DNA of 64,000 bases from a virus. Its lineage: Duplodnaviria; Caudoviricetes. Each line of letters starts with the position of its first letter. Positions within the stretch are counted from its first letter, which is position 1. Location of the stretch: IMG/VR virus record IMGVR_UViG_3300028738_000008. One strand, given 5' to 3'. The position numbers and the translations under genes are program-made. Positions 18,912-63,326 of this stretch are shown piece by piece. The notes beneath the pieces were generated by a model. The model was not told the origin of the DNA, did not search any database, and worked only from the letters and a program-made list of their open reading frames with translations.

Positions 18912-18942
18912 TTTGCAAGTTACAAATTAATGATTACCTTTG
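18912..18942 (+). promoter_or_regulatory. Bacteroidota-type promoter of tRNA operon 1
   Basis: TTTG-N19-TACCTTTG; TATTTATA at 18904-18911. Confidence 0.8.
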
Positions 18943-18971: not shown

Positions 18972-19043
18972 ATGAGAACAATTTTTAACATAGTACCGCA
19001 GCATCAACCACAACCCTTGAAGTATCTTCAATCGAATGGCTGA
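18972..19043 (+). CDS. Leader peptide 1 (MRTIFNIVPQHQPQPLKYLQSNG)
   Basis: PQHQPQP run upstream of a terminator and Pro/His/Gln tRNAs. Confidence 0.85.
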   Translation: MRTIFNIVPQHQPQPLKYLQSNG

Positions 19044-19071
19044 ACTATGTAAAAAATAAACATACATAATG

Positions 19072-19108
19072 ATCCCCTTTAATTGAAAGATTAAAGGGGA
19101 TTTTTTTT
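19072..19108 (+). terminator. Attenuator terminator 1
   Basis: atcccctttaat-tgaaag-attaaaggggat plus T-tract. Confidence 0.9.
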
Positions 19109-19590: not shown

Positions 19591-20355
19591 ATGTATTACG
19601 TTGTACAGAAGAATGTTTTTAGGGAAGAAAATTACGATAATTTGATTATCGCTTTGAATCGGTTGGAGTTGCCATATGAGATCGTTGATGTATTACCTTT
19701 TGTAGACACCTTCGAATTCAAGACAACCAGAAAGGATGTTTTTCCTTTCGGAGCTGTTAAAATGTCAAGAATTGCCAAAGAATTGGACTGGAATCCAGGC
19801 TCTCAATTATGTGACAATCATGACTATAACGTATATAGTAAGTATTATAAAGAAAACTTGCTGAACTACGATTCAAGGATTATCAGGTTTGGCGATGATT
19901 TCTTTCAAACAGAAAGGTTCTTTGCACGTCCGACATTGGATACTAAAGTGTTTACTGGTCATGTGTTTGACATGGGCGAATGGATTAAGTTCAGAGACGA
20001 ATCCATTGTCAATGGACATAGCACTTTACTGAACACAGATACTGAAATTCAGATTTCTTCTGTAAAAAATATACAGAAAGAAATAAGGTTTTGGATTGTG
20101 AAAGGCGAAATCGCCACAGCAAGTCAGTATTCTCTGGGTGGAAGATTCTGTGTGAATGAAAACGTCGATCAGTCGGCATATGACTTCGTAAACAGAATGA
20201 TTAAGATATTCGAATTGAATGATACCTTTATTATAGATGCATGCCTTGTTAAAGGCGAATACAAAATAGTTGAATGCGGTTGCACAAACAGTGCTGGCTT
20301 CTATCGAGCAGATATGCAAAAGCTGCTTATGAAATTGGAAGACGCTTTCAATTAA
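19591..20355 (+). CDS. ATP-grasp domain protein (DUF4343/R2K-like)
   Basis: FARP..DTKVFTG, EIRFWIVKG.I...SQY, FIIDA..., KIVECGCTNSAGFY; start revised to the ATG at 19591. Confidence 0.8.
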   Translation: MYYVVQKNVFREENYDNLIIALNRLELPYEIVDVLPFVDTFEFKTTRKDVFPFGAVKMSRIAKELDWNPGSQLCDNHDYNVYSKYYKENLLNYDSRIIRFGDDFFQTERFFARPTLDTKVFTGHVFDMGEWIKFRDESIVNGHSTLLNTDTEIQISSVKNIQKEIRFWIVKGEIATASQYSLGGRFCVNENVDQSAYDFVNRMIKIFELNDTFIIDACLVKGEYKIVECGCTNSAGFYRADMQKLLMKLEDAFN

Positions 20356-22437: not shown

Positions 22438-22485
22438 TAAAATAGTGAATTATTTTAAACTTTTTTGATTTTTTTACTATTTATA

Positions 22486-22516
22486 TTTGCAGGTATCAAA
22501 AATTGTATTACCTTTG
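22486..22516 (+). promoter_or_regulatory. Promoter of tRNA operon 2
   Basis: TTTG-N19-TACCTTTG; near-copy of the operon 1 promoter. Confidence 0.8.
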
Positions 22517-22546: not shown

Positions 22547-22639
22547 ATGAGAAATTTACTTAACATAGAATTATTGGCAGTGGATCAGGTCAACCTCCTA
22601 TTATGGGCGGATGAAGATAGATTATGCCATGCTGGTTAA
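22547..22639 (+). CDS. Leader peptide 2 (MRNLLNIELLAVDQVNLLLWADEDRLCHAG)
   Basis: 19 of 30 residues are L/D/E/V/A/W. Confidence 0.85.
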   Translation: MRNLLNIELLAVDQVNLLLWADEDRLCHAG

Positions 22640-22664
22640 GTAGAGTTTAAGAATATTTTAAACT

Positions 22665-22695
22665 AAACCCCCAGCATACGTGTTGGGGGTTTTTT
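22665..22695 (+). terminator. Attenuator terminator 2
   Basis: aaacccccagca-tacg-tgttgggggttt plus T-tract. Confidence 0.9.
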
Positions 22696-22739
22696 GTTTA
22701 TGTACGTTATTTGACATGTTGGGTTATAAAATTAAAATT

Positions 22740-22811
22740 GGTCTATTGGGGTATGGGTTATCCTTTGTGGTTGTCAGCCATGAGAAGCGAGTTCAAGTCT
22801 CGCATAGACCG
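22740..22811 (+). tRNA. trnD: tRNA-Asp(GTC)
   Basis: Loop ttgtcag; G73. Confidence 0.8.
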
Positions 22812-22870
22812 CACTAAGCATTATGAGAGTACTTGCCACTAGGGTAAGCCAACCTAAATTGCTTTTTCAT

Positions 22871-22944
22871 ACCTTCGTAGGGGAGTGGTCGTCCCTGTCG
22901 CACTGTCTATGCGAAGATCGCCAGTTCAAATCTGGTCGGGGGTG
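22871..22944 (+). tRNA. trnD: tRNA-Asp(GTC)
   Basis: tcgca-ctgtcta-tgcga. Confidence 0.85.
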
Positions 22945-22973
22945 CTGGTTTCATAATAAATGAAACATTTAAT

Positions 22974-23046
22974 GCTCGGTTCATCTAACTGGTTAGGATA
23001 GGTGACCTTCAATCATCCAATACGGATTCAAGTTCCGTACCGAGTA
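22974..23046 (+). tRNA. trnE: tRNA-Glu(TTC)
   Basis: ggtga-ccttcaa-tcatc. Confidence 0.8.
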
Positions 23047-23056
23047 CTTTTTTCAT

Positions 23057-23131
23057 GCTCCTATCGTCTAGTTGGTTCAAGGCGTCTGTTTTACAAGCAG
23101 AATATCGGTGGTTCGAATCCATCTGGGAGCA
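23057..23131 (+). tRNA. trnV: tRNA-Val(TAC)
   Basis: tctgt-tttacaa-gcaga. Confidence 0.85.
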
Positions 23132-23140
23132 CAAATTTAT

Positions 23141-23213
23141 GGCTTAGTAGACCAACGGCAGAGTCATCAGACTTAAACCCTGTACAGTGTGGGTTCGAAT
23201 CCCACCTAAGCTA
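23141..23213 (+). tRNA. trnL: tRNA-Leu(TAA), short variable loop
   Basis: Loop cttaaac; 5-nt variable loop; weak anticodon stem. Confidence 0.75.
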
Positions 23214-23220
23214 CAAATAT

Positions 23221-23294
23221 GGCTCAGTATCCCAATTGGCAGAGGAAGTTGACTCAAAAACAACTAGTTGTCGGTTCGAATCCGACTTGAGCTA
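23221..23294 (+). tRNA. trnL: tRNA-Leu(CAA), short variable loop
   Basis: Loop ctcaaaa. Confidence 0.8.
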
Positions 23295-23305
23295 CAATAT
23301 AATAT

Positions 23306-23378
23306 GGATCGGTAGACCAACGGCAGAGTCACTTGTTTTAGAAGCAAGCCAGTGAGGGTTCGAATCCCTCTCGATCTA
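23306..23378 (+). tRNA. trnL: tRNA-Leu(TAG), short variable loop
   Basis: cttgt-tttagaa-gcaag. Confidence 0.8.
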
Positions 23379-23388
23379 CAATATTTAT

Positions 23389-23475
23389 GGGGAATTGATG
23401 GAATGGTAGACATCCTAGTTTTAGAAACTAGTGCGAAATAATAGTAGCGTGTGAGTTCGAGTCTCACATTCCTCA
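23389..23475 (+). tRNA. trnL: tRNA-Leu(TAG), long variable arm
   Basis: ctagt-tttagaa-actag. Confidence 0.9.
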
Positions 23476-23594
23476 CGCAATATTCAATGGGAACGCATGT
23501 GTTAACATCGTGGCGTCCGTCACGTAGATGGGAAACAGAACAGGGAGCATGCCTAGAATCTCGTTTAGGGTTGGAGATTTACTTTAATAATTAT

Positions 23595-23668
23595 GGGGCA
23601 GTAGCTCAATTGGCTAGAGCACTACACTTGCAATGTAGAGGTTGTGGAATCGTCCTCCATCTGCTCCA
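23595..23668 (+). tRNA. trnA: tRNA-Ala(TGC), atypical T-loop
   Basis: ctaca-cttgcaa-tgtag; G3:U70; T-loop atcgtcc. Confidence 0.85.
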
Positions 23669-23696
23669 CTGATAATCAGGAGATTATCTATTTTAC

Positions 23697-23786
23697 ACGT
23701 CTATGTCCGAGTGGCTTAAGGAACTGGTCTCCAAAACCAGCGTGGGTGACACCATATCCAAGGTTCGAATCCTTGTTGGCGTGCCA
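23697..23786 (+). tRNA. trnW: tRNA-Trp(CCA) with class II (Ser-like) body
   Basis: ctggt-ctccaaa-accag; 18-nt variable region; G73; CCA encoded. Confidence 0.8.
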
Positions 23787-23807
23787 GAGAATAAATGTTG
23801 CGAATCT

Positions 23808-23836
23808 TGTAACATTTATTCTTTTTTTTCGTATAA
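23808..23836 (+). promoter_or_regulatory. TGTAAC-N16-CGTATAA putative promoter (copy 1 of 4)
   Basis: Same boxes and spacing at 29658, 38449, 56088. Confidence 0.65.
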
Positions 23837-28571: not shown

Positions 28572-28649
28572 ATGATGAATGCAACACTTAAATACGGAAA
28601 GACTACTAAATCTTATAAAAAATATAAGATGAAGAAGGACTGTGTGTAA
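28572..28649 (+). CDS. Leader peptide 3 (MMNATLKYGKTTKSYKKYKMKKDCV)
   Basis: 8 Lys and 3 Tyr in 25 residues. Confidence 0.85.
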   Translation: MMNATLKYGKTTKSYKKYKMKKDCV

Positions 28650-28671
28650 GTGAACTATATATAATATATTC

Positions 28672-28706
28672 AAAAACCCAGTCTTAATTTAAGTCTGGGT
28701 TTTTTT
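28672..28706 (+). terminator. Attenuator terminator 3
   Basis: aaaaacccag-t-ctta-att-taag-t-ctgggttttt plus T-tract. Confidence 0.85.
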
Positions 28707-28720
28707 ATGTTAAAAAATTC

Positions 28721-28792
28721 GCTCCTATAGCTTAATGGTAAAGCCTTCGACCTTTAATCGAATGACCCCTGAATCAGTATCAGGTGGGAGCA
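28721..28792 (+). tRNA. trnK: tRNA-Lys(TTT), atypical T-loop
   Basis: ttcga-cctttaa-tcgaa; T-loop atcagta. Confidence 0.7.
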
Positions 28793-39222: not shown

Positions 39223-39227
39223 TATAT

Positions 39228-39310
39228 GGAAGGTAGCATGCAGTGGTGCATAAGTGGCTTTGAACACCATGCCGATGTAAAAGTCGAGAGTTCGATTCTT
39301 TTACCTTCCG
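39228..39310 (+). tRNA. trnS: tRNA-Ser(TGA)
   Basis: Loop tttgaac; long variable arm; G73. Confidence 0.85.
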
Positions 39311-39636
39311 CTTAGAAGTAAGATTAGTCTGAGACAAAGTACACGTCATGGCAACCACGCCAGCTTCTACACGCATAGCTGATTGATTAACAGAGTCATT
39401 CAGTCTGGTACTTAGAAGTAGTGTTAGCAATTGTTCTGTTTATTTGCTAATGATATTTATTAATTGCCGTTTCCGAATTGCTTAAGATGCTGCCATTAAG
39501 ATTCTGTTTGGGACAATTAGAAAGGATGTGTTGAACTACCCGATTATAAAAGGTCTCCTGAGATTTTATGAATCTTTGTAATAAGGTTCGTGGTCGTGAG
39601 TAAGAGGCTCACATCGGAAATAAAATATTTAAAATT

Positions 39637-57220: not shown

Positions 57221-57652
57221 ATGAAACTATATAAGGCTTTAAAACTGAAAAAGAAATTGACTGGCGAAATTGCTAGTTTGAAATTATTAATTCTTTCTAA
57301 GAACTCATACGTGGAAGGTTCAAAGGTAAACTATGTTGTGACTGAACTGTATGATGAACTGTTGGTAAAAATAAATGCTTTGGTTGATTTGAAAATGTCG
57401 ATCAATGCAGCAAATGCCGACATTCAAGAAAGTATTTATAATCTTGCTGAATTGAAAGGCATGATTTCTTTCTGGCAGCAAATGCCGACAGCCGAAGGTG
57501 TTATTAGTAATACTTACTCGGAAGCAGCCGCAAAGACTTATGTGGCTACCTTTAATGAAGTTTTTAAAGATAATCTCATTAAAAACTTACAGACTGACGT
57601 TGATACGATTCAGGAAGAAATCGATACATATAATTATACCAAAGAAGTTTAA
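57221..57652 (+). CDS. DIP1984-like helical protein
   Basis: MKLYKALKLKKKL.GEI..L; K..I..AN; LAELKG; IQEEID.YN. Confidence 0.65.
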   Translation: MKLYKALKLKKKLTGEIASLKLLILSKNSYVEGSKVNYVVTELYDELLVKINALVDLKMSINAANADIQESIYNLAELKGMISFWQQMPTAEGVISNTYSEAAAKTYVATFNEVFKDNLIKNLQTDVDTIQEEIDTYNYTKEV

Positions 57653-57833
57653 AACATAAGGGAAGTCGAGGAATTAGTGTAAAAATCAACGATAGTTACA
57701 TGTAAAACTGAAAACGATAATGATATCAACATTAAAATTCAAGTCTTATGCGTATCAAAAATCACTCGTCAAAATTGAAAACTCATTTTATCTACTTTTA
57801 TATTAACAAATCGATTTTCCTTTTACATTTTTT

Positions 57834-58214
57834 ATGAGAGAAACAATAGAAAAACTAACGGAAGAAGAAAAGTCTGCATTGCTTTTAAAGTACGCTGACC
57901 TTTCTTCTTATTATATTAAAGAACATTTATATGACCCACTTATCTCTGCGGTCATTTTAGATACGTGTTTTAAGCACTTAGAAGCGAATTACAAGGATTC
58001 ATCGAAAGTAGCTAAAGCATGGGCTGTAACCATCGTTATGCGCAACTATGACGACCTGCTTGATGTTGGACATATCAGACATATGATCGAGAAGTTCTTA
58101 ATGTATTATGCCAGCAGCAAGTATGAGGAATATTGTGCTGATATAGCTCTTTGGAATAATGACTTTGCCAAAGACGCCGAATTTATTAGGAACTATTGCT
58201 CAACCGAATTATGA
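57834..58214 (+). CDS. Hypothetical protein
   Basis: 126 aa ORF. Confidence 0.65.
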   Translation: MRETIEKLTEEEKSALLLKYADLSSYYIKEHLYDPLISAVILDTCFKHLEANYKDSSKVAKAWAVTIVMRNYDDLLDVGHIRHMIEKFLMYYASSKYEEYCADIALWNNDFAKDAEFIRNYCSTEL

Positions 58215-61862: not shown

Positions 61863-63326
61863 ATGACAGATATTATTAAGCTAATCAGCGAAGAACTTAA
61901 CAGACTAACACCTGTTGTACTCAATGAGAACCATATTTACGAAGCCGAAGACGATACAGAGGATCAAGAAGAACCCGAACAAGTTACACAAGCTGCAAAT
62001 AACTTCGAACAAATGGCAAACGCCGTTAAGCCAGAAGGCGACGTAGAAGCTATCGGAATGCCAAACGAAAGCCAAATAGGTGGCTTCACTGTCTATATTC
62101 CTGTAAGCAGAGAATACTCATTAAATAAGGTAATCGCCTCAATGATCAAAGCAGCGACTAAGCTCGGAGTCACTCCACCTGTTATAACCAAAGGCAATAA
62201 AACAACTAAGGTAGTTACAGTCGATGGCTACAAATATGCCGTAGACGTAATCCCTGTCAGCGTAAATGTTGATCAAGTGTTCAGAATGCCAGGTAATTAC
62301 AAGCTGGAAGCAGTCGTGGACACAAGAAGCGGCGGAAGTGTTGCAGTGGGTACAGACCCAATTCCTCATGAATTATTAAACGGTTCACAAGATTGCGACT
62401 ACTGTCACCAAAAAAGAGATCGTATAAAAAGCTTTATCGTAAGAGGCGGAGCAGACAATGGATATAAAACATTGGGAAGTAATTGTGTAAACAAATTCTT
62501 AGGAATTAATCCAGCCAAATATTTAAGAATGCTGGACGTATATTCATTGTTTAAAAACACAATGGAACAATTCGAAGAAGATGGCTTTGGAAACGAAGGT
62601 GGCGGCGGTGGATTTGGAATCAGTGCTAAACTAAGAATCTTTGATCTACCAAAAGCAATAACTATTGTTCATAATGTATTAAAAGCAGACGGTGGCAATA
62701 TTAAACGTGATTGGGTGTATCCTGATAATGGCAGAAAATACCAAACAAATGAAGGAGAAGCAACTGCTGATAAAGCAGAGGAAATTATGGACGACCCAGA
62801 CCAAAGAGATAACATAAAGGTAGACGAGGATTACGTGAAAGGCTTTATTGACTTTTTGAAAAACTTTGAAATACCTAAAGACGCCAAATACGAATTTCAA
62901 GAATATCTTCACAAGATGAAGGAAATCCCTAATAAAGATTTCAGATACGTCGATACTGCCTTCTTAGCTTCTGCCGAAAACTATTTCGACCAAAACCAAG
63001 CAAGACTCGCTGCGCCAGAATCAAACTTCGTAGGCGAAGAAGGTGCTAAAGTCAAAATAAAAGACGCTACAGTAACTGGCGTTCGCTCTGGCGACGGTGC
63101 ATACGGCACATGGTACTTATGGACATTCGTTGACCCAGCAGGTAACGTCTTAAAGAAATTCGGTGAACTTAATACAAAATTCAGAACCTTCGAAGACCCT
63201 AGACATGATGCATTATTAGGAGATATCAATAAAGGCGATAAATTCAGCTTTACAACGGATATTAAGAAACACGAAGTATTCAATAACCAAAAATCAACCC
63301 AGCTGGGCAGATTGTCTAAATTCTAA
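61863..63326 (+). CDS. Hypothetical protein with Zn-binding motif and C-terminal OB-like fold; possible head-internal protein
   Basis: MTDIIKLISEELNRL leader; CDYC..KR...LGSNC; TATTTATA at 61842-61849. Confidence 0.6.
   Translation: MTDIIKLISEELNRLTPVVLNENHIYEAEDDTEDQEEPEQVTQAANNFEQMANAVKPEGDVEAIGMPNESQIGGFTVYIPVSREYSLNKVIASMIKAATKLGVTPPVITKGNKTTKVVTVDGYKYAVDVIPVSVNVDQVFRMPGNYKLEAVVDTRSGGSVAVGTDPIPHELLNGSQDCDYCHQKRDRIKSFIVRGGADNGYKTLGSNCVNKFLGINPAKYLRMLDVYSLFKNTMEQFEEDGFGNEGGGGGFGISAKLRIFDLPKAITIVHNVLKADGGNIKRDWVYPDNGRKYQTNEGEATADKAEEIMDDPDQRDNIKVDEDYVKGFIDFLKNFEIPKDAKYEFQEYLHKMKEIPNKDFRYVDTAFLASAENYFDQNQARLAAPESNFVGEEGAKVKIKDATVTGVRSGDGAYGTWYLWTFVDPAGNVLKKFGELNTKFRTFEDPRHDALLGDINKGDKFSFTTDIKKHEVFNNQKSTQLGRLSKF

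What the first reader, a model, noticed from the sequence alone, without database searches (positions are those of the whole stretch)
22547..22695. Attenuator 2: Leu/Asp/Glu/Val/Ala/Trp sensor
The eight Leu codons use five synonyms (TTA, CTT, TTG, CTC, CTA). The single TGG matches the single tRNA-Trp. atgctgg (22629-22635, just before the stop) is the exact complement of ccagcat (22671-22677) in the terminator 5' arm, so a ribosome reaching the stop would mask the antiterminator.
Basis: partly seen in the sequence, partly recalled or inferred. Interest (0 to 1): 0.82.

Follow-up and report, generated by a model that had tools for sequence, protein, structure and literature searches.

The report
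Leader-peptide attenuator gating phage tRNA genes
A 30-codon mini-gene written mostly in Leu, Asp, Glu, Val, Ala and Trp codons, wired to a switchable transcription stop, sits in front of a giant phage's tRNA genes for those same amino acids, so the phage probably makes these tRNAs only when ribosomes read those codons slowly; I found no published description of such control for tRNA genes.

Summary

The unit is one of four cassettes in the window, at 18972, 22547, 28572 and 37984. Each has a Bacteroidota-type promoter, a short ORF, an intrinsic terminator and a tRNA array. The four arrays divide all 20 amino acids between them, and each leader is enriched only in its own set.

About 60 homologous cassettes occur in uncultured giant phages of 322-735 kb, including GenBank LR756501.
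- Where the tRNA content of an array differs, the leader composition differs with it. Across 12 independent types the Fisher p is 3e-30, and 0 of 200,000 permutations match the observed fit.
- The end of the ORF pairs with its own terminator 5' arm. This holds in 38 of 46 leaders and involves at least 10 different covarying sequences.
- RNAalifold recovers the 1:2, 2:3 and 3:4 helices with compensatory changes.
- Sensor codons lie where a stalled ribosome would leave the antiterminator free.

No RNA or experimental data exist, so the regulation itself is inferred. Seven literature searches found no prior description. This scan has noted the same design on other phage DNA before; those are AI notes and I did not test them. 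The "five Leu synonyms" detail is not significant (p=0.18).

The parts
22486..22516 (+). Promoter of Bacteroidota type: -33 TTTG (22486-22489), 19-nt spacer, -7 TACCTTTG (22509-22516). A second TAnnTTTG box (TATATTTG, 22482-22489) overlaps the -33 element.
   Evidence: Read. 44 of 49 unique homologous leaders have TAnnTTTG 31-65 nt upstream of the ATG, with consensus TTTG-N19-TAtaTTTGca. The 19-mer around the -7 box is identical at 18933 and 22507.
22547..22639 (+). Leader ORF of 30 codons plus TAA. Codons 1-7 are the family-wide N-terminus M[KR]N[LS]x[ND]I, codons 8-24 the sensor core, and codons 25-30 the tail that encodes region 2.
   Evidence: The ORF is kept open in all homologues, with in-frame indels, for example a 14-codon insertion in G001.
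22568..22618 (+). Sensor core, codons 8-24 (ELLAVDQVNLLLWADED). 15 of 17 residues come from the downstream tRNA set.
   Evidence: An A-site stall at any of these codons leaves the antiterminator able to form.
22555..22568 (+). Region 1. It pairs with 22632-22644 (anti-antiterminator, 1:2 helix), with further inner pairs 22575-22579/22625-22629.
   Evidence: MFE folds. RNAalifold predicts the helix in 15 B-type leaders, with a compensatory change G-C to A-U in the window and G001.
22629..22635 (+). Region 2 (ATGCTGG), the 5' strand of the antiterminator. It pairs with 22671-22677.
   Evidence: structure dG -15.9. Covariation is shown.
22644..22664 (+). AT-rich spacer hairpin between the stop codon and the terminator. 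The antiterminator helix encloses it.
   Evidence: A hairpin in the same place (GTAATA..TATTAC) is visible in most B-type relatives (alignment, by eye). Its role is inferred.
22665..22695 (+). Intrinsic terminator (regions 3 and 4). The core stem is CCCCCAGCA / TGTTGGGGG with loop TACG, followed by T6.
   Evidence: G001 shows a compensatory change, CCCCC/GGGGG to CCTCC/GGAGG. 46 of 49 homologous leaders have a terminator 21-54 nt after the stop.
22710..22722 (+). Conserved box TTTGACATGTTGG between the terminator and the first tRNA. Function unknown.
   Evidence: Identical at 38214. A TTTGA[CT][AG]T box is present in 19 of 48 relatives, mostly about 19 nt before the first tRNA.
22740..23786 (+). 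Regulated tRNA array: Asp, Asp, Glu, Val, Leu x4, Ala, Trp.
23786..23824 (+). Terminator that closes the array.
   Evidence: It is conserved in G001.
18972..19108 (+). Paralogous cassette A. The leader MRTIFNIVPQHQPQPLKYLQSNG and a terminator precede the Pro x3, His x2 and Gln x2 tRNAs.
28572..28706 (+). Paralogous cassette C. The leader MMNATLKYGKTTKSYKKYKMKKDCV and a terminator precede the Lys x3 and Tyr x2 tRNAs.
37984..38186 (+). Paralogous cassette D. A 48-codon leader rich in I, S, N, G, T, R, F, M and C, plus a terminator, precedes the array that starts with Cys and runs on through Ile, Phe, Gly, Met, Asn, Thr, Arg and Ser.

Best explanation
This is a ribosome-mediated (leader-peptide) transcription attenuator that gates a phage tRNA operon.

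Proposed sequence of events:
- Transcription starts at a Bacteroidota-type promoter about 25 nt upstream of the ATG, and a ribosome translates the 30-codon leader.
- If Leu, Asp, Glu, Val, Ala and Trp codons are decoded quickly, the ribosome reaches the tail and stop codon. There it covers region 2 (22629-35), the terminator 22665-22695 forms, and RNA polymerase stops 45 nt before the first tRNA.
- If any of those codons is decoded slowly because the matching charged tRNA is scarce, the ribosome stalls within codons 8-24. The stall breaks the 1:2 helix and leaves region 2 free. Region 2 then pairs with the terminator 5' arm, and polymerase reads through into the ten tRNA genes.
- The tRNAs made relieve the stall, so the circuit is a direct negative feedback.

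The window holds four such units. Together they cover all 20 amino acids.

Shown here: the anatomy, the alternative helices with covariation, the composition-to-tRNA tracking and the placement of the sensor codons.
Inferred: translation of the ORF, transcription-translation coupling, stalling, the actual change in read-through and the physiological trigger.
For: 1. Anatomy: promoter, ORF, spacer hairpin, terminator and tRNA array.
2. The same design occurs four times in the window. The arrays partition the 20 amino acids, and each leader is enriched only for its own set: A 8/19, B 18/26, C 11/21, D 36/44, with p from 1e-4 to 3e-6 for the own set and >0.4 for the other sets.
3. Sixty-one cassettes came from a motif search of viral contigs, and more came from a motif-free survey. 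Where the array content differs, the leader differs with it:
   - LLQQLQLLQL precedes Gln and Leu tRNAs only.
   - FEFDFFAAEADF precedes Asp, Phe, Glu and Ala.
   - LTLSLCTLSRRS precedes Ser, Thr, Cys, Arg and Leu.
   - TPAPAVAFRRGTGTGTGTCVPAGCG precedes Arg, Thr, Val, Ala, Gly and Pro in LR756501.
   Across 12 independent types the Fisher p is 3e-30 and permutation gives 0 of 200,000. Across 41 unique leaders the own fraction is 0.49 against 0.24 when permuted, 0 of 20,000.
4. A terminator is present in 46 of 49 leaders.
5. Antiterminator: in 38 of 46 leaders the last 30 nt of the ORF pair with the own 5' arm better than with at least 95% of unrelated arms, and at least 10 different arm sequences are involved. 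RNAalifold on transcripts truncated before the 3' arm gives a 9-bp helix in which 5 pairs carry compensatory changes.
6. The 1:2 helix and the terminator are predicted on the full alignment, with compensatory changes.
7. Geometry: stalls at codons 2-24 keep the antiterminator, and stalls from codon 26 on lose it. Across relatives, 72% of residues in the stall-permissive core match the tRNA set, against 15% in the N-terminus and 31% in the tail.
8. The frame is preserved through in-frame indels.
Against: - There is no transcript, ribosome-profiling or reporter evidence. No RNA run holding this DNA was listed.
- The phage and its host are uncultured.
- In the equilibrium fold of the transcript truncated before the terminator 3' arm, the antiterminator can form even without a ribosome. 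The off state therefore depends on kinetics, with 1:2 forming first, and that is assumed.
- Cassette A of this window has only a weak antiterminator.
- A conserved box between the terminator and the first tRNA (22710-22722) could be a second, unregulated entry point for transcription or a processing signal.
- Not all residues match: Q14, N16 and R25 have no tRNA in this array.
- Making more tRNA would not help if the amino acid itself were limiting. What is sensed (tRNA abundance, charging or damage) is therefore open.
Confidence: 0.85

Rival explanations
1. The short ORF with its promoter and terminator is an independent small phage gene, or a promoter-proximal insulator. The tRNA array would be transcribed from its own start near the conserved box at 22710-22722, and leader and tRNAs would have no regulatory link.
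For: A conserved box, and a sigma-70-like TTGACA-N16-TAAAAT, lie between the terminator and the first tRNA. The terminator is strong.
Against: This cannot explain why leader composition changes with the tRNA content in at least 12 independent types. It also does not explain why the ORF tail covaries with the terminator 5' arm. The box spacing is not conserved (N16 here, N9 at 38215), and a start from it would fall inside tRNA-Asp (my reading). Cassettes A and C have no such box.
Confidence: 0.05
2. The same RNA switch is set by something other than the supply of the cognate charged tRNAs. Candidates are a nascent-peptide arrest (as in tnaC, secM or erm leaders), direct tRNA binding to the leader RNA (T-box-like), or a phage protein binding the conserved N-terminal region or region 1.
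For: The N-terminus M[KR]N[LS]x[ND]I, and its DNA, are conserved across cassettes with different sensors. That could reflect a binding site or an arrest motif rather than only region 1.
Against: Sensor cores share no sequence and only track the amino-acid identities of the tRNAs. No T-box or other Rfam family matches. One RNA binding up to nine different tRNAs is implausible. The N-terminal codons covary with the stop region as an RNA helix.
Confidence: 0.07
3. The match between peptide and tRNAs is a by-product with no sensing role. It could arise from local mutational or recombination history, for example leaders derived from tRNA-adjacent sequence.
For: None found beyond the fact that the cassettes are paralogous and duplicate together with their arrays.
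Against: Own-versus-swapped statistics, the position-specific enrichment in the stall-permissive core and the conserved open frame all argue for selection on decoding.
Confidence: 0.03

Closest known systems
Leader-peptide transcription attenuators of enterobacterial amino-acid operons (trpL, hisL, leuL, pheL), especially the multivalent ones (thrL: Thr+Ile; ilvL/ivbL: Ile, Leu, Val). This comparison rests on established knowledge.
   Same: Both have a short translated ORF enriched in regulatory codons. Both have three mutually exclusive helices (1:2, 2:3, 3:4) ending in an intrinsic terminator. In both, region 2 is covered by a ribosome that finishes the ORF, and a stall at the sensor codons gives read-through.
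   Different: The regulated genes here are tRNAs, not biosynthetic enzymes, so the product acts directly on the sensor. The leaders sense 2 to 9-10 amino acids. The units are phage-encoded, in sets that cover all 20 amino acids. The promoter is of Bacteroidota type with no Shine-Dalgarno sequence. There is no sequence or Rfam-model similarity.
pheST (pheM leader) attenuator of E. coli, in which a translation-apparatus gene is controlled by a Phe-rich leader (my own knowledge, not checked here).
   Same: Leader-peptide attenuation is used to adjust a component of the decoding system according to the decoding speed of the cognate codons.
   Different: The target there is the synthetase, it senses one amino acid, and it is a cellular gene.
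T-box riboswitches (Rfam RF00230)
   Same: They read tRNA status to decide between a terminator and an antiterminator upstream of translation-related genes.
   Different: T-boxes bind uncharged tRNA directly through a specifier codon and a T-box loop, and they have no ORF. No T-box match exists in the window.
Codon-matched leader cassettes noted earlier by this scan on other phage DNA (flavobacterial-type, marine Bacteroidota and Caulobacter giant phages). These are AI notes.
   Same: By their descriptions, the architecture and reading are the same.
   Different: They concern other genomes. I did not test them and they are not independent published evidence.

Membership tests
Ribosome-mediated (leader-peptide) transcription attenuator | Short ORF in the 5' leader enriched in codons of the sensed amino acids | tested here: met
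   17 of 23 residues are in the set, against 7.3 expected. The enrichment is specific for the own set in all four window cassettes.
Ribosome-mediated (leader-peptide) transcription attenuator | Intrinsic terminator between the leader ORF and the regulated genes | tested here: met
   The terminator at 22665-22695 has dG about -19. 46 of 49 homologues have one. G001 carries a compensatory change.
Ribosome-mediated (leader-peptide) transcription attenuator | Antiterminator that uses the terminator 5' arm and a segment that a ribosome finishing the ORF would cover | tested here: met
   22629-35 pairs with 22671-77. The swap test succeeds in 38 of 46 leaders. RNAalifold gives a 9-bp helix in which 5 pairs show compensatory changes.
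Ribosome-mediated (leader-peptide) transcription attenuator | Anti-antiterminator (1:2) that sequesters region 2 when the leader is not translated | tested here: met
   22555-68 pairs with 22632-44 in the MFE. The helix is conserved and carries a compensatory change. Its kinetic precedence is not testable here.
Ribosome-mediated (leader-peptide) transcription attenuator | Sensor codons placed so that a stall frees region 2 | tested here: met
   Stall scan. Core, N-terminus and tail show 72%, 15% and 31% matching residues.
Ribosome-mediated (leader-peptide) transcription attenuator | Read-through responds to the supply of cognate charged tRNA (functional proof) | not testable with these tools
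   No RNA runs were listed. The phage is uncultured.
Classical amino-acid operon leaders (Rfam Trp_leader, His_leader, Leu_leader, Thr_leader, Phe_leader) | Match to the family covariance model; regulated genes are biosynthetic genes of the sensed amino acid | tested here: not met
   cmscan of the whole window at gathering thresholds found only tRNAs. The downstream genes are tRNAs.
T-box riboswitch | Specifier loop and T-box motif; match to RF00230 | tested here: not met
   No match.

The most novel reading that the evidence does not exclude
Giant Bacteroidota phages may run a modular tRNA homeostat. Every tRNA array would be switched on by its own codon-matched leader when ribosomes stall on those codons. 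The phage could then detect and repair loss of particular host tRNAs automatically, whether the loss comes from host shut-off or from anticodon-nuclease defences that cut tRNA-Lys or tRNA-Tyr. Cassette C senses exactly Lys and Tyr. The ribosome would be the sensor and the tRNA both the output and the feedback signal.
Probability: 0.35. Interest if true: 0.95.

Novelty: new variant of a known kind. Interest (0 to 1): 0.88.

Why it matters
- Expression of tRNA genes is generally thought to be set by promoters and growth-rate control. Control of tRNA genes by the decoding speed of their own codons would be a new regulatory logic, and the shortest feedback loop known for attenuation.
- It would explain why giant-phage tRNA genes are grouped by amino acid.
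- It gives a sequence rule (the leader spells out the array) that can annotate operon boundaries and unusual tRNAs in uncultured phages.
- It makes the open question of why phages carry tRNAs testable. The condition that opens each attenuator (codon-usage mismatch, host shut-off or tRNA-cleaving defence) is the condition under which the tRNAs are needed.
- The leaders are also compact, multi-input natural sensors of decoding capacity.

Tried and rejected
- Expression evidence: 24 DNA (peat metagenome) runs hold the stretch, but no RNA run was listed.
- Rfam: no leader, T-box or other regulatory family was found.
- Megablast against GenBank phages found only tRNA-Leu hits in Streptomyces phages.
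- The whole genome is not held.
- PHROGs and Pfam scans of neighbouring proteins gave no taxonomic anchor.
- The Brevundimonas phage homologue of the ATP-grasp gene does not lie in a tRNA array. I therefore confirmed no cultured relative with the cassette.
- The sigma-70-like promoter at 22711-22738 (11 of 12 matches) was considered as the real tRNA promoter and rejected as the main route. Its spacing is not conserved at the paralogous box, its start site would fall inside tRNA-Asp, and the host promoter type is TTTG/TAnnTTTG.
- Leu synonym diversity is not significant (p=0.18).
- A simple duplex test did not support the antiterminators of cassettes A and C when only the 5' arm was used. Full folds show pairings that also involve the terminator loop. 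Cassette A remains weak.
- A narrow Rfam re-scan of 22960-23060 did not return the tRNA-Glu that the whole-window scan called. I read its anticodon by eye only.
- Seven literature searches and the huge-phage paper PMC7162821 (no occurrence of "attenuat", "leader" or "terminator") gave no prior description. This means none was found in the held library, not that none exists.

Full report
**What is in the sequence.** The window is AT-rich (34.5% GC) and phage-like. It carries 33 tRNAs by ARAGORN and 34 by Rfam, all on the + strand.

The finding's coordinates are exact.
- An ATG at 22547 opens a 30-codon frame ending in TAA at 22637-22639. The peptide is MRNLLNIELLAVDQVNLLLWADEDRLCHAG.
- A 12-pair hairpin with six G-C pairs and a T6 run occupies 22665-22695.
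- ATGCTGG (22629-35) is the exact complement of CCAGCAT (22671-77).
- Forty-five bases after the T-run begins an array of ten tRNAs (22740-23786): Asp, Asp, Glu, Val, Leu(TAA), Leu(CAA), Leu(TAG) x2, Ala and Trp. Glu is called by Rfam only.
- A second terminator at 23786-23824 closes the array.
- Upstream lies a promoter of the Bacteroidota type: TTTG (22486-89), 19 nt, TACCTTTG (22509-16).

**The unit is one of four.** The same promoter box, short ORF, terminator and tRNA array occur at 18972 (A), 28572 (C) and 37984 (D). A motif-free survey looked for a terminator preceded by a 12-70 codon ORF and followed within 260 nt by a tRNA. It finds exactly these four in the 64 kb.
- Leader A (…VPQHQPQP…) precedes Pro x3, His x2 and Gln x2.
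- Leader C (…KYGKTTKSYKKYKMKK…) precedes Lys x3 and Tyr x2.
- Leader D is 48 codons, rich in I, S, N, G, T, R, F, M and C. It precedes the long array that begins with Cys and contains Ile, Phe, Gly, Met, Asn, Thr, Arg and Ser.

The four arrays partition all 20 amino acids: A {P,H,Q}, B {D,E,V,L,A,W}, C {K,Y}, D {C,I,F,G,M,N,T,R,S}. Each leader is enriched only in its own set (A 8/19, B 18/26, C 11/21, D 36/44). The p values run from 1e-4 to 3e-6 for the own set, and every off-diagonal comparison is at or below expectation.

**Relatives.**
- A syntenic viral contig, G001 (148 kb, estimated 45% complete), is 65-93% identical.
- The ATG-proximal DNA motif of the leaders retrieved 103 stretches from IMG/VR. 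Sixty-one of them are short ORFs with a tRNA within 400 nt, giving 49 unique peptides once the four window leaders are added.
- Several lie on complete genomes of 322-425 kb.
- The ATP-grasp gene embedded in array A is 52% identical to one in LR756501, the 735-kb genome of Al-Shayeb et al. 2020. That paper places its largest genomes in the Mahaphage clade with predicted Bacteroidetes hosts, and it does not mention attenuators, leaders or terminators (PMC7162821).
- The promoter consensus TTTG-N19-TAtaTTTGca is present in 44 of 49 leaders, which agrees with a Bacteroidota host.
- The window's DNA is held by peat metagenome runs.

**The leader spells out its array.** Where the tRNA content of an array differs, the leader differs accordingly.
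- LLQQLQLLQL precedes only Gln and Leu tRNAs (G002).
- FEFDFFAAEADF precedes Asp, Phe, Glu and Ala.
- LTLSLCTLSRRS precedes Ser, Thr, Cys, Arg and Leu.
- LAVEAAAMLWLDMDVEW precedes Leu, Glu, Ala, Met, Val, Trp and Asp.
- KRRTIKRMMRKM precedes Met, Lys and Arg.
- TPAPAVAFRRGTGTGTGTCVPAGCG precedes Arg, Thr, Val, Ala, Gly and Pro in LR756501.

G003, a complete 363-kb genome, has the same four cassettes as the window. Its D leader stands before 20 contiguous tRNAs of the D set.

Statistics:
- I took one representative of each of 12 types and counted residues after position 7 against the window's proteome background. Ten of the 12 are individually significant, and the Fisher combination gives 3e-30.
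- Reassigning tRNA sets among the types never reaches the observed fit in 200,000 permutations.
- Over 41 unique leaders the own-set fraction is 0.49, against 0.24 when sets are permuted (0 of 20,000).

Retrieval used only the N-terminal motif or the terminator geometry, never composition, so this result is not circular.

**The switch.**
- Terminators follow the stop codon by 21-54 nt in 46 of 49 leaders. The other three are visible by eye.
- In G001 the B terminator carries a compensatory change, CCCCC/GGGGG to CCTCC/GGAGG.
Most B-type relatives have a different terminator (CCCGACT…AGTCGGG), and there the last codons of the ORF read AGTCGGG.
- Across all types, the last 30 nt of the ORF pair with the own 5' arm better than with at least 95% of unrelated arms in 38 of 46 leaders. 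At least ten unrelated arm sequences are involved.
- RNAalifold on 14 B-type transcripts cut before the 3' arm predicts a 9-bp 2:3 helix. Five of its pairs show double compensatory changes.
- On the full-length alignment RNAalifold predicts the terminator and a 1:2 helix between codons 4-6 and the stop region. That helix has a G-C to A-U double change in the window and G001: N6/…GGT TAA against D6/…GGG TAA.
- In the window, 1:2 is 22555-68 with 22632-44 plus inner pairs (dG -26). 2:3 is 22629-35 with 22671-77, enclosing the spacer hairpin 22644-64 (dG -16). 3:4 is 22665-92 (dG -19).

**Geometry.** I masked the mRNA up to 12 nt beyond the A-site codon. The antiterminator survives stalls at codons 2-24 and is lost from codon 26 onward. 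A ribosome at the stop codon covers region 2 entirely. The sensor core is codons 8-24. Across relatives, 72% of residues in the stall-permissive core belong to the downstream tRNA set, against 15% in the conserved N-terminus and 31% in the tail. The peptide therefore has three parts:
- an N-terminus constrained as RNA (region 1);
- a core constrained by which tRNAs decode it;
- a tail constrained as RNA (region 2).

**Mechanism proposed.** Fast decoding of the core lets the ribosome run onto region 2. The terminator then forms and the tRNA array is not transcribed. Slow decoding of any core codon stalls the ribosome upstream, which opens 1:2 and lets 2:3 form, so polymerase reads through. The tRNAs produced speed up decoding and close the loop.

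This logic is that of the trp, his, leu, thr and ilv attenuators (established knowledge). The regulated product, however, is the tRNA itself.

What is sensed physiologically is inferred. More tRNA cannot cure a shortage of the amino acid, so the likely signal is shortage of decoding-competent tRNA. Such a shortage could come from a mismatch between phage codon usage and the host pool, from host shut-off, or from tRNA-cleaving defences. From my own knowledge, unchecked, tRNA-Lys and tRNA-Tyr are known nuclease targets, and they are exactly the pair governed by cassette C.

**Limits.**
- Nothing here shows transcription, translation or termination in vivo, and no RNA run was listed.
- The off state without translation rests on the kinetic assumption that 1:2 forms first. 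At equilibrium, the transcript cut before the terminator 3' arm can also adopt 2:3.
- Cassette A of this window has a weak antiterminator.
- A conserved box (TTTGACATGTTGG, 22710-22) between the terminator and the first tRNA is unexplained.

**Novelty.**
- The window matches no Rfam leader or T-box model.
- Seven full-text searches found no description of leader-peptide attenuation of tRNA genes.
- This scan has recorded the same design on other phage DNA before, including flavobacterial-type, marine Bacteroidota and Caulobacter giant phages. First-reader notes on this genome say the same. These are AI notes. I tested the ones on this genome but not those on other genomes.
- I class it as a new variant of a known kind: the classical attenuation mechanism with a new class of regulated gene, multi-amino-acid codon-matched sensors and genome-wide modular use in giant phages.

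Noticed in passing
window 22710-22722 and 38214-38226; L019, L020 and many B-type loci: A conserved box (GT)TCTTTGACATGTTGG lies between the attenuator terminator and the first tRNA, usually about 19 nt before it. A TTTGA[CT][AG]T box is present in 19 of 48 relatives. Its function is unknown; it could be a processing signal, an extended U-tract or a second start site.
   Followed up: partly
window 28721-28792 and 22974-23046: Two tRNAs that ARAGORN misses but Rfam calls (Lys-UUU and Glu-UUC) have anticodon loops CCUUUAA and CCUUCAA. That puts C at position 33, where U is almost universal. The Lys case is confirmed by the Rfam alignment; the Glu case I read by eye only. Altered loops might affect recognition by anticodon nucleases.
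   Followed up: partly
window 29698-29770: A tRNA has anticodon CTA (an amber suppressor, labelled Pyl by ARAGORN). Among 31 long ORFs of the window none ends in TAG (TAA 26, TGA 5).
   Followed up: partly
window 23697-23786 and G001 62542-62616: The tRNA-Trp(CCA) has a long variable arm (90 nt). Its homologue in G001 lacks the arm, and ARAGORN calls it Gly(TCC), although the aligned loop contains CCA.
   Followed up: partly
window 19591-20355: An R2K-clade ATP-grasp gene (Pfam PF14243/PF18299, RimK-like) is embedded in array A between the His and Gln tRNAs. It is conserved in the same place in relatives and is 52% identical to a gene in the 735-kb phage LR756501. One GenBank phage annotates a homologue as ribosomal protein S6 glutaminyl transferase.
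   Followed up: partly
L041, L060, L072, L079, L082, L114, L126 (B-type leaders of relatives); not in the window: The motif ACCTCCTTTCTT lies between the leader stop codon and the terminator. From memory, it resembles the 3' end of 16S rRNA (the anti-Shine-Dalgarno region).
   Followed up: no
G001 57650-58170: An ORF of about 170 codons is inserted between the first and second tRNA-Pro of array A. It is absent from the window and may be a mobile (homing-endonuclease-like) insertion.
   Followed up: no
L040, L043, L064, L092: In some A-type relatives an extra short Lys/Glu-rich ORF (starting MAKEK…) lies between the attenuator terminator and the first tRNA.
   Followed up: no
window 38340-38410 and 39226-39312: These tRNA-like sequences are called by neither ARAGORN nor Rfam. 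The first aligns with a tRNA-Ile(GAT) called in G001.
   Followed up: partly
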